A DNA stretch of 64,000 bases from the human T2T-CHM13v2.0 reference genome, Homo sapiens. The stretch lies in NCBI RefSeq assembly GCF_009914755.1, contig NC_060925.1. One strand, given 5' to 3'. A model generated the notes under the pieces. The model did no database searches. It saw only the letters and a list, made by a program, of their open reading frames with translations, and was not told the origin of the DNA. Position 1 is the stretch's first letter. Every line of letters begins with the position of its first letter. Shown piece after piece: positions 51,188 to 52,099 of this stretch. Both the position numbers and the translations under genes were made by a program.

Positions 51188-51308
51188 GAGCAGGCATTTA
51201 TTAACCCATGTTGTACCACCCATCATGCAGGAGAGAGAGACCTCAGCTCAAAAATTGTTTCTCTTTCAAGTCAGCGGCTTAAGGGCTTTGCTCAAATAGT
51301 TTTTTTTT

Positions 51309-51488
51309 CTATTCATTTTTAGCAAATGATGCTGGAACAACCAGATAACCATATGCAAGTAATGAATCTGGACCCCTGTCTCATAACATATACAAACCTT
51401 AACCCAAATTGATCAAAAAGCTAAATGTAAGAGCTAAAACTATAGAATTCTTGGAGAAAATATTGAAGTAAAGACAACACTGAATTCC
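51309..51488 (+). mobile_element. Old L1M ORF2 internal fragment (cargo of composite insertion)
   Basis: caaatgatgctggaacaac...ctaaatgtaagagctaaaactatagaattcttggagaaaa corresponds to the L1 ORF2p KWCW...LNVRAKTIKLLEEN region. Confidence 0.8.
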
Positions 51489-51783
51489 TTTTTTTTTTTT
51501 TTTGAGACGGAGTCTCGCTCTGTTTCCCAAGCTGGAGTGCAGTAGCGTGATCTCGGCTCACTGCAACCTCTGCCTCCCAAGTTCAAATGATTCTCCTGCC
51601 TCAGCCTCCCCTGTAGCTGGGACTACAGGCGCCCGCCACTACGCCCGGCTAATTTTTGTATTTTTAGTAGAAACAGGATTTCACCATATTGGCCAGGCTG
51701 GTCTCGAACTCTTGACCTTGTGATCTGCCCTCTTTGGCCTCCCAAAGTGCTGGGATTACAGGTGTGAGCCACTGCGCCCGGCC
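51489..51783 (-). mobile_element. AluS (Sg/Sc-like), full length, T15 tail
   Basis: Alu consensus match beginning exactly at ggccgggcgc on the minus strand (51783). Confidence 0.95.
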
Positions 51784-52099
51784 TGCTCCAATAGTATTTA
51801 AACAAAGAGCCATAAAATCCTATATAGCAACAAGACAAAGGAGAGAGCAGTTCGAGTGTTTTAAAAGATAGTAAAATGTGGGAAGTTAGTGAAATCTGTT
51901 CTCAGATTCCTCCAGTGCCTGCTGGTACCTTTTTTGGGTCAATAAACAAGTGCCGTCTCCAGTAAGGAAGGATTGGTGTCCTGTCATCAGGCAAATAGAG
52001 GCTGAAACAGTGTCCCCCTATATTTTCTGTGTCTTTAACAGCCCTCAATATGTTGGGGAGAAATATTTTGATTTCTTTCAATTCCTAGCGATCACTTTT

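What the first reader, a model, noticed from the sequence alone, without database searches (positions are those of the whole stretch)
51289..51801. Candidate Alu-mediated 3' transduction: Alu plus 180 bp cargo inside one TSD pair
Seen on the minus strand: TSD, full-length AluS starting exactly at GGCC (51783), A15, about 180 bp of diverged antisense L1M ORF2 (51488-51309), a second A9 tract, TSD. The repeats are tgctcaaatagttttt (51289-51304) and tgctccaatagtattt (51784-51799), the latter ending at an ATTT/AA endonuclease-like site. I see no TSD next to the Alu's own tail. The host MER34-like LTR (ATTC TSD intact) resumes on both sides, so an old internal L1 piece sits inside an LTR, which is hard to explain by independent insertion. 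Established: 3' transduction is common for L1 and SVA but rare for Alu, because Pol III stops at T-runs and priming uses the Alu tail. The cargo has T4 and T5 runs on the Alu strand, implying terminator read-through, a Pol II transcript, or an RT template-switch chimera.
Basis: partly seen in the sequence, partly recalled or inferred. Interest (0 to 1): 0.8.

Follow-up and report, generated by a model that had tools for sequence, protein, structure and literature searches.

The report
Alu with old L1 piece attached
A full-length Alu and a 180-base scrap of a much older LINE-1 sit together inside one pair of target-site duplications in a solo LTR, a real but rare composite insertion that this genome alone cannot assign to one mechanism.

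Summary
On the minus strand the order is: 16-bp repeat, full-length dimeric Alu starting at GGCC, A15, about 175 nt antisense to LINE-1 ORF2, TGAATAG, A9, second 16-bp repeat (14 of 16 identical; 0 of 3000 random pairs reach this). Paralogous copies of the host LTR run through the site with a single 16-mer. So Alu plus cargo is an insertion with a true 16-bp duplication and an ATTT/AAAC nick site.

The cargo is passive. It is antisense, internal to ORF2 and more diverged than the Alu.

Pol III 3' transduction is not supported. The cargo has T4, T4 and T5 runs on the Alu strand. No source paralogue was found in T2T-CHM13: the best match is 79-81% identical, and none of 39 copies has a same-strand Alu upstream.

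My ranking:
- One L1-driven event that joined an Alu RNA to another RNA by template switching or RNA ligation: about 0.4.
- A second retrocopy inserted later into the Alu's A-tail: about 0.3.
- Alu read-through transduction: about 0.17.

Primate orthologues would decide, and none could be searched here. This is a new member of a known kind, of modest interest.

The parts
51784..51799 (-). 5' target-site duplication, AAATACTATTGGAGCA on the minus strand
   Evidence: It matches the 3' copy at 14 of 16 positions; 0 of 3000 random pairs reach that. The 16-mer is single-copy in the paralogous LTRs.
51504..51783 (-). Full-length Alu body, 280 nt, starting at GGCCGGG. S-type by diagnostic positions that I recalled, not tested.
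   Evidence: Rfam gives two Metazoa_SRP halves on the minus strand. It is 71-85% identical to 18 other full-length Alus, and differs from their majority at 28 of 280 positions: 11 at CpG positions and 17 of 242 elsewhere.
51489..51503 (-). The Alu's own A-tail, a pure A15, joined directly to the cargo
51316..51488 (-). Cargo of about 173 nt, antisense to LINE-1 ORF2 (the L1 sense strand is the window + strand). It is an internal piece of an old L1M-type element and carries T4, T4 and T5 runs on the Alu strand.
   Evidence: It is 76-81% identical to 39 genomic copies and 70-71% identical to young L1 loci that carry RVT_1, on the strand opposite their ORF2. The match lies 475-620 nt 3' of the RVT_1 match and at least 880 nt from the end of the locus-spanning ORF. 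Star-tree branch length is 0.168, against a median of 0.129 for the copies. T runs.
51309..51315 (-). TGAATAG, seven bases of uncertain origin between the clear L1 homology and the terminal A run
   Evidence: It may be L1 sequence reached across a deletion (TGAATGG/TGAATTG, or the TCAATTG of a second TTGTTGAAAA motif), or an insertion inside the A-rich L1 motif. Not resolved.
51300..51308 (-). Terminal A9 run. Only A4 lies outside the 16-bp duplication, and the ancestral target read AAAT.
   Evidence: paralogue sites.
51289..51304 (-). 3' target-site duplication, AAAAACTATTTGAGCA on the minus strand
50787..52080 (-). Host solo LTR-like repeat, about 500 bp without its inserts. It has TG...CA ends and is flanked by GAAT at 52081-52084 and 50783-50786.
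   Evidence: Paralogue homology starts at about 52080 and ends at about 50787. Star-tree branch length is 0.101.

Best explanation
I read this as a bipartite chimeric retrocopy made in one L1-driven integration (target-primed reverse transcription).

Inferred sequence of events:
1. L1 endonuclease nicked the LTR at ATTT/AAAC.
2. Reverse transcription started on a short A-rich stretch of a cellular, non-L1 transcript that happened to contain an old L1M fragment in antisense.
3. After about 180 nt the enzyme moved to the A-tail of a Pol III Alu RNA and copied it to its first base. Alternatively the two RNAs had already been joined.
4. Second-strand nicking 16 bp away produced the duplication.

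Shown: the anatomy, the single 16-bp duplication, the empty site in paralogues, the antisense internal nature of the cargo, and the cargo's greater divergence.

Inferred: that one event rather than two made it, and that the join was a template switch or an RNA ligation.
For: - One 16-bp TSD pair encloses both parts, with an endonuclease-like nick site. Neither part has a recognisable TSD of its own.
- The structure meets the published features of bipartite chimeric retrogenes: a full-length 5' part, a truncated 3' part, the same orientation and flanking direct repeats (passages of PMC2104539). It also resembles the 452 TSD-bounded Alu/L1 chimeras, in which the Alu is mostly full-length and sits 5' (PMC13174262, section 12 and Table S4 parts 1-2).
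- The cargo cannot be an L1 insertion in its own right. It is antisense, internal, and more diverged (0.168) than the Alu's non-CpG sites (17 of 242, or 0.07).
- A Pol II-type donor RNA removes the Pol III terminator problem.
- Only A4 lies outside the TSD at the 3' end, while A15 survives in the middle. That fits a single event primed on a short A-rich stretch. It fits poorly with a second insertion that should have left its own tail plus a duplicated A-run.
- The sequence that follows this point in most of the 45 L1 copies scanned (AAAGACTATT) matches the target (AAATACTATT) at 9 of 10 positions. Such a match occurs at 5 of 1392 endonuclease-like sites in the window. This would suit priming helped by base-pairing.
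Against: - No donor RNA or locus was found.
- There is no canonical polyadenylation signal in the 40 nt before the terminal A run.
- The junction match was noticed after the fact. It disappears if the L1 homology instead continues across a deletion into TGAATAG.
- Sequence from one genome cannot separate one event from two.
- By base rates, insertions into A-rich Alu parts are common: about 15,759 sense Alu-in-Alu insertions cluster just after the A-rich linker (PMC2836564 passages). A nested origin is therefore not much less likely.
- A Pol III Alu RNA ends in flank plus U's, not in its A-tail, so the switch would have had to land inside the tail.
Confidence: 0.4

Rival explanations
1. Two events. 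The Alu inserted first and made the 16-bp duplication. Later a short, 5'-truncated retrocopy of some transcript landed in the Alu's A-tail in the same orientation. That transcript could be, for example, an orphan 3' transduction of an active L1, or the end of a cellular RNA containing antisense L1M. The second event's own duplication is pure A and cannot be seen.
For: - The layout Alu, A-run, insert, A-run, original TSD is exactly what this predicts.
- A-rich parts of Alus are documented hotspots for sense-oriented insertion, with a model in which the T-run next to the nick primes and the A-run becomes the duplication (PMC2836564 passages).
- The A15 equals the usual 15-16 nt distance between the two nicks in that model.
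- Halabian et al. had to exclude Alus whose extra segment held L1, Alu or SVA as confounders (bioRxiv 10.1101/2024.04.29.591526, parts 1-2 of 3).
Against: - The 3' A-run should hold the new tail plus a copy of the duplicated A-run, yet only A4 lies outside the first TSD while the 5' A-run is still 15.
- No polyadenylation signal precedes it.
- The 9-of-10 match between the L1 continuation and the first TSD would be a coincidence (5 of 1392 sites), unless the nick lay within 4 nt of that TSD. In that case a visible second duplication would be expected.
- No parent locus was found.
Confidence: 0.3
2. Alu 3' transduction. A source Alu sat just upstream of an antisense L1M fragment. Its transcript ran through the A-tail and 180 nt of flank, and reverse transcription was primed downstream of the tail on an A-rich stretch. 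A variant is a Pol II transcript that happened to end at Alu base 1.
For: - It uses one RNA and one event, and explains both the exact Alu 5' end and the single TSD.
- ORF2p is recruited to Alu RNA, so a linked flank is a natural template.
- The 9-of-10 complementarity between target and flank continuation would explain why priming skipped the A-tail.
- There are precedents: an Alu monomer with a short transduction, and AluSx3 plus WaluSat inside TSDs. Both are as cited in 10.1101/2024.04.29.591526; I did not read those papers.
Against: - Three Pol III terminators lie in the cargo on the Alu strand: T4 at 29, T4 at 50 and T5 at 70. The first two are the common state of the aligned L1 copies, so they were probably present in any source.
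- Termination is about 75% at T4 and 95% at T5 with a U6 promoter (PMC5725217 section 6). It is described as very efficient at T4/T5 on tRNA-type templates in vitro (PMC3141230 passages). Multiplying the U6 figures gives a joint read-through of about 0.3%.
- No source was found. The best paralogue is 79-81% identical, against roughly 86% expected. None of 39 copies has a same-strand Alu within 330 nt upstream.
- Two junction-pattern scans gave only chance-level or unrelated hits.
- A systematic screen confirmed no Alu transduction among 118,489 human, 106,386 chimpanzee and 191,128 rhesus AluY elements.
- The Pol II variant needs truncation exactly at Alu base 1.
Confidence: 0.17
3. The L1 piece came first and the Alu later inserted exactly at its 5' edge. 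Or the cargo is filler DNA copied into a break in the A-tail by DNA repair, without L1 machinery.
For: The cargo is older than the Alu by divergence. Templated insertions at breaks are mentioned as a source of odd Alu-adjacent sequence (PMC4666360 passage).
Against: - An L1-first history needs an Alu insertion with no TSD of its own, at a non-endonuclease site (TTCC/TG), and exactly at the boundary.
- The piece has no L1 3' end or poly-A in its own sense orientation.
- Filler DNA of 180 nt is unusual, and no donor was found.
Confidence: 0.08

Closest known systems
Bipartite chimeric retrogenes made by L1 reverse-transcriptase template switching (Buzdin, Gogvadze and colleagues; features as listed in PMC2104539)
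   Same: The 5' part is a full-length copy of a small Pol III RNA. The 3' part is a truncated copy of another RNA. Both lie on the same strand, are directly joined, and are flanked by a 10-20 bp direct repeat.
   Different: The 3' part here is neither an L1 3' end nor an identified mRNA. It is an unidentified transcript carrying antisense L1M. It ends in a very short A run without a polyadenylation signal, and the join runs through the Alu's own A15.
Alu/LINE-1 chimeric insertions (Law and Burns 2026, PMC13174262; 452 loci)
   Same: A full-length Alu lies 5' of an L1-derived segment inside one TSD of at least 7 bp with an endonuclease motif. AluS is a common partner (33% of their loci).
   Different: In the catalogue the L1 part is a 5'-truncated L1 of normal length distribution. 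It is mostly in the same orientation as the Alu and mostly from a family active at the time (82.8%). Here the L1 piece is antisense, internal and older. No row of Table S4 lies between chr1:236.39 Mb and 243.83 Mb (hg38). I place this locus, from its CHM13 coordinate and from recall of where LINC01139 lies in hg38, at about 238.4-238.5 Mb. The pipeline looks upstream of the L1 in L1 orientation, so this layout would not have been scanned.
3' transduction by L1 and SVA, and the few reported Alu cases (Alu monomer; AluSx3 plus WaluSat)
   Same: Element, own A-tail, foreign flank, second A run, one TSD pair.
   Different: No source locus was found. Pol III terminators lie inside the cargo. A screen of more than 400,000 AluY elements in three primates confirmed none (10.1101/2024.04.29.591526).
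Nested retro-insertion into an A-rich part of an existing Alu (Levy, Schwartz and Ast, PMC2836564)
   Same: The inserted piece lies in the same orientation immediately after an A-run of an Alu. Any duplication made of A's is invisible.
   Different: That study concerns the A-rich linker and left element ends out of the analysis. Here the insert is not a mobile element, and the A-run after it is much shorter than the one before it.

Membership tests
Bipartite chimeric retrogene (template switch) | The 5' part is a full-length copy of a cellular RNA | tested here: met
   The Alu starts at GGCCGGG directly after the TSD and runs 280 nt plus A15. Rfam finds two SRP-derived halves.
Bipartite chimeric retrogene (template switch) | The 3' part is a 5'-truncated copy of another RNA, ending in that RNA's 3' end | tested here: inconclusive
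   The parent RNA is not identified. The terminal A run is short and no polyadenylation signal precedes it.
Bipartite chimeric retrogene (template switch) | The parts are directly joined in one orientation and flanked by short direct repeats | tested here: met
   There is a 16-bp repeat, 14 of 16 identical, single-copy in paralogous LTRs. The A runs of both parts lie on the same strand.
Alu 3' transduction (Pol III) | The TSD pair encloses the Alu plus extra sequence, which ends in a second A tract | tested here: met
   The second tract is A9, of which only 4 A's lie outside the TSD.
Alu 3' transduction (Pol III) | A source locus exists with a same-subfamily Alu directly upstream of the transduced sequence | tested here: not met
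   The best paralogue is 79-81% identical. None of 39 copies has a same-strand Alu upstream. Junction patterns gave no candidate. Only the best 40 candidates per search were scored, and a lost source cannot be excluded.
Alu 3' transduction (Pol III) | The first T>=4 terminator lies beyond, not within, the transduced segment (criterion used in 10.1101/2024.04.29.591526) | tested here: not met
   T4, T4 and T5 lie at cargo positions 29, 50 and 70 on the Alu strand.
Alu/LINE-1 chimeric insertion (Law and Burns) | The L1 part is a 5'-truncated L1 with its 3' end, from a family active together with the Alu | tested here: not met
   The piece is antisense to the Alu, internal to ORF2, and more diverged than the Alu.
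Nested second insertion into the Alu tail | Some lineage carries the Alu at this site without the insert | not testable with these tools
   No primate genome other than the window's own assembly is held (one search states that G000 has no relatives here).
Solo LTR host (reader: MER34-like) | A repeat unit with TG...CA ends, a short flanking duplication and many dispersed copies | tested here: met
   TG at 52080, CA at 50787, GAAT on both sides. At least 40 genomic copies at 73-80% identity, with boundaries shared by the paralogues. The family name was not tested.

The most novel reading that the evidence does not exclude
This is a genuine 3' transduction by a full-length Alu. A Pol III transcript read through three canonical terminators into 180 nt of flank. 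Reverse transcription was primed not on the A-tail but downstream, where about 10 nt of the flank could base-pair with the nicked target. It would be one of very few documented Alu transductions. It would also show that target-template complementarity can override the A-tail as the priming site.
Probability: 0.13. Interest if true: 0.6.

Novelty: new member of a known kind. Interest (0 to 1): 0.3.

Why it matters
Alu elements are more than a million strong, yet they are thought almost never to carry flanking DNA with them. A systematic screen of AluY elements confirmed no case. A clean composite with an unambiguous 16-bp duplication and a reconstructable empty site is therefore a useful test locus.

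Comparative data could go three ways:
- Alu and cargo arrived together and a donor with an adjacent Alu exists: this would be a rare example of Alu-driven transduction.
- They arrived together without such a donor: this adds a non-L1 partner to the catalogue of RNA recombination by the L1 machinery.
- The Alu came first: this is an ordinary nested insertion.

No gene or annotated functional element is affected. The site lies in an intergenic LTR between lncRNA genes.

Tried and rejected
- Orientation. I first took the cargo for L1 sense sequence, from a recalled L1 sequence. Comparison with young L1 loci that carry RVT_1 showed it is antisense, so all readings that use L1 mRNA as template were dropped.
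- Protein evidence for L1 identity led nowhere. Pfam gave nothing on three cargo frames. It gave only one weak match, below the curated cut-off, to an unrelated zinc-finger family on 87 frames of L1 copies, and nothing on 95 frames of up to 4 kb upstream of five copies. PDB sequence searches with the cargo frame and two copy frames gave nothing relevant.
- Source hunts:
  - The whole cargo and its two halves were searched against the own genome.
  - A 24-nt pattern across the A-tail/cargo join, with up to 3 mismatches, gave 9 other hits against 14 for the reversed control. The one hit lying behind an Alu (L084) is that Alu's own TSD and shows no further cargo homology.
  - A 24-nt pattern across the cargo's 3' end gave 42 other hits against 14 for the control. 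None has cargo-like sequence leading into the pattern.
- Twin priming was rejected. It would place the inverted part next to the 5' TSD, not between the Alu tail and the 3' TSD.
- Autonomous L1 insertion into the Alu tail was rejected, because the piece is antisense, internal and old.
- The divergence comparison between cargo (0.168) and host LTR (0.101) is suggestive only, at about 2 standard errors.

Full report
**What is there.** All coordinates below are read on the minus strand. The sequence runs in this order:
- AAATACTATTGGAGCA (51799-51784)
- a 280-nt Alu body starting exactly at GGCCGGG (51783-51504)
- a pure A15 (51503-51489)
- 180 nt of non-Alu sequence (51488-51309)
- nine A's (51308-51300)
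- AAAAACTATTTGAGCA (51304-51289), whose first five A's are part of that run

The two 16-mers agree at 14 of 16 positions (family D3). Among 3000 random pairs of places 495 nt apart in this window, with +-10 nt slack on each side, none reached 14 of 16. Rfam finds two signal-recognition-particle-derived halves on the minus strand, at 51782-51669 and 51649-51502. This is the dimeric build of an Alu. The name AluS rests on diagnostic positions that I recalled, not on a test.

**The host and the empty site.**
- The flanks belong to a dispersed repeat with at least 40 copies at 73-80% identity.
- In this window the unit runs from TG at 52080 to CA at 50787 and is flanked by GAAT on both sides. The name MER34 could not be tested.
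- Searching the two flanks separately shows the site as it was before insertion. In the paralogues the match to the upstream flank and the match to the downstream flank overlap by exactly 16 nt.
- Eleven paralogues were printed at the site. All carry one 16-mer, commonly AAATACTATTTAAGCA. Ten of them have recognisable host sequence on both sides.
- So the 495 bp of Alu plus cargo are an insertion with a true 16-bp target-site duplication. Each copy has since changed at one position.
- The implied first nick, ATTT/AAAC on the bottom strand, resembles the L1 endonuclease site.

**What the cargo is.**
- In the whole T2T-CHM13 genome the cargo matches many copies of one repeat at 75-81% (40 of 1851 candidates scored).
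- It matches three young LINE-1 loci, found through their RVT_1 domain, at 70-71% over 147 nt (E 6e-19 to 3e-17). The match is on the strand opposite to their ORF2, 475-620 nt 3' of the RVT_1 match, and inside an open frame that continues at least 880 nt further.
I first assumed the opposite from memory and corrected it.
- Clear homology runs from the A15 to about 51316. The last seven bases (TGAATAG) can be aligned in several ways.
- Pfam and PDB sequence searches on the decayed frames gave nothing useful.

**Ages.** I used pairwise distances and a star-tree estimate.

| Sequence | Estimated divergence |
|---|---|
| Cargo branch | 0.168 |
| 39 L1 copies, median branch | 0.129 (range 0.084-0.180) |
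| Host LTR branch | 0.101 |
| Alu vs majority of 18 other Alus | 28 of 280: 11 at CpG positions, 17 of 242 (0.07) elsewhere |

The L1 sequence is thus clearly older than the Alu insertion, and perhaps older than the LTR it lies in. Together with its orientation and internal position, this means it did not arrive as an L1 insertion. It is passive sequence copied from somewhere.

**Testing the transduction reading.**
None was found.
- The best full-length match is 79%, and the best partial matches are 81-88% over 56-127 nt of the most conserved stretch. The Alu's non-CpG divergence predicts roughly 86% for a true source.
- No hit extends into the A-tail/cargo join.
- None of 39 fetched copies has a same-strand Alu within 330 nt upstream. 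Eleven have Alus there, all in the opposite orientation.
- Two pattern scans over the 5' and 3' joins gave chance-level or unrelated hits.
- These searches score only the best 40 candidates each, and a source may have been lost. The result weakens the reading but does not exclude it.
- The cargo also carries T4, T4 and T5 on the Alu strand, at positions 29, 50 and 70. The first two are the usual state of the aligned L1 copies, so a source would have had them.
- Measured termination is about 75% at T4 and 95% at T5 with a U6 promoter (PMC5725217, section 6). Passages of PMC3141230 describe T4/T5 as very efficient in vitro.
- A preprint that screened 118,489 human, 106,386 chimpanzee and 191,128 rhesus AluY elements confirmed no Alu transduction. 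It set aside candidates whose extra piece held L1, Alu or SVA (10.1101/2024.04.29.591526, parts 1-2 of 3).

**What remains.** Three histories give this layout.
- (a) One integration of two joined RNAs, by template switching of the L1 reverse transcriptase or by prior RNA ligation. This is the known class of bipartite chimeric retrogenes (features in PMC2104539). It is close to the 452 Alu/L1 chimeras of Law and Burns (PMC13174262). This locus differs from those in having an antisense, internal, older L1 piece. No row of their Table S4 lies between chr1:236.39 and 243.83 Mb, the interval where I place this locus.
- (b) Two events, the second landing in the Alu's A-tail with an invisible poly-A duplication. 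A-rich parts of Alus are known hotspots (PMC2836564 passages).
- (c) Alu read-through transduction.

**Internal clues that lean towards one event.**
- Only four A's lie outside the TSD at the 3' end, whereas fifteen survive in the middle.
- No polyadenylation signal precedes the end of the cargo.
- The sequence that follows this point in most of the 45 L1 copies scanned (AAAGACTATT) matches the target (AAATACTATT) at 9 of 10 positions. That is seen at 5 of 1392 endonuclease-like sites in the window.

The last clue was noticed after the fact and depends on how the final bases are aligned, so I give it limited weight.

**Verdict.** My estimates are (a) 0.40, (b) 0.30, (c) 0.17 and other histories 0.08. 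The rest is left open.
- The object is a new member of a known kind of L1-mediated composite insertion.
- The deciding evidence is the state of the orthologous site and a donor search in other primates.

Noticed in passing
window 50887-51190 (+ strand): A second full-length Alu, 83% identical to the first, lies in the opposite orientation in the same LTR, 97 bp from the composite's 3' TSD. The two form an inverted Alu pair about 300 bp apart. Paralogous LTRs are continuous across this site too.
   Followed up: partly
loci L045, L059, L006, L053: In 4 of 39 L1 copies an Alu abuts the same point of the L1 sequence, where homology to the cargo begins. All four are oriented opposite to the cargo reading. 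This looks like an Alu insertion hotspot inside L1 ORF2.
   Followed up: no
L064:1570-1625: One L1 copy has an A-rich microsatellite-like expansion exactly at the TTGAAAAGAC motif where the window's cargo ends. This motif can therefore grow into a long A-rich tract that might serve as an internal priming site.
   Followed up: partly
window 51600-51651 (- strand): Rfam mir-1268 matches inside the Alu right arm at 64.7 bits, below the gathering score of 83. This is an Alu-derived family and says nothing specific about this locus.
   Followed up: no
window 51300-51315 (- strand): GAATAG, then A9, then CTATT forms a short inverted repeat around the terminal A run. It may be chance or a trace of how the 3' junction formed.
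   Followed up: no
L1 copies: The antisense L1 sequence carries two similar motifs about 45 nt apart: CATTTGTTGAAAAGACTATT and CCTTGTTGAAAATCAATTG. A deletion between them would also explain the cargo's last bases.
   Followed up: partly
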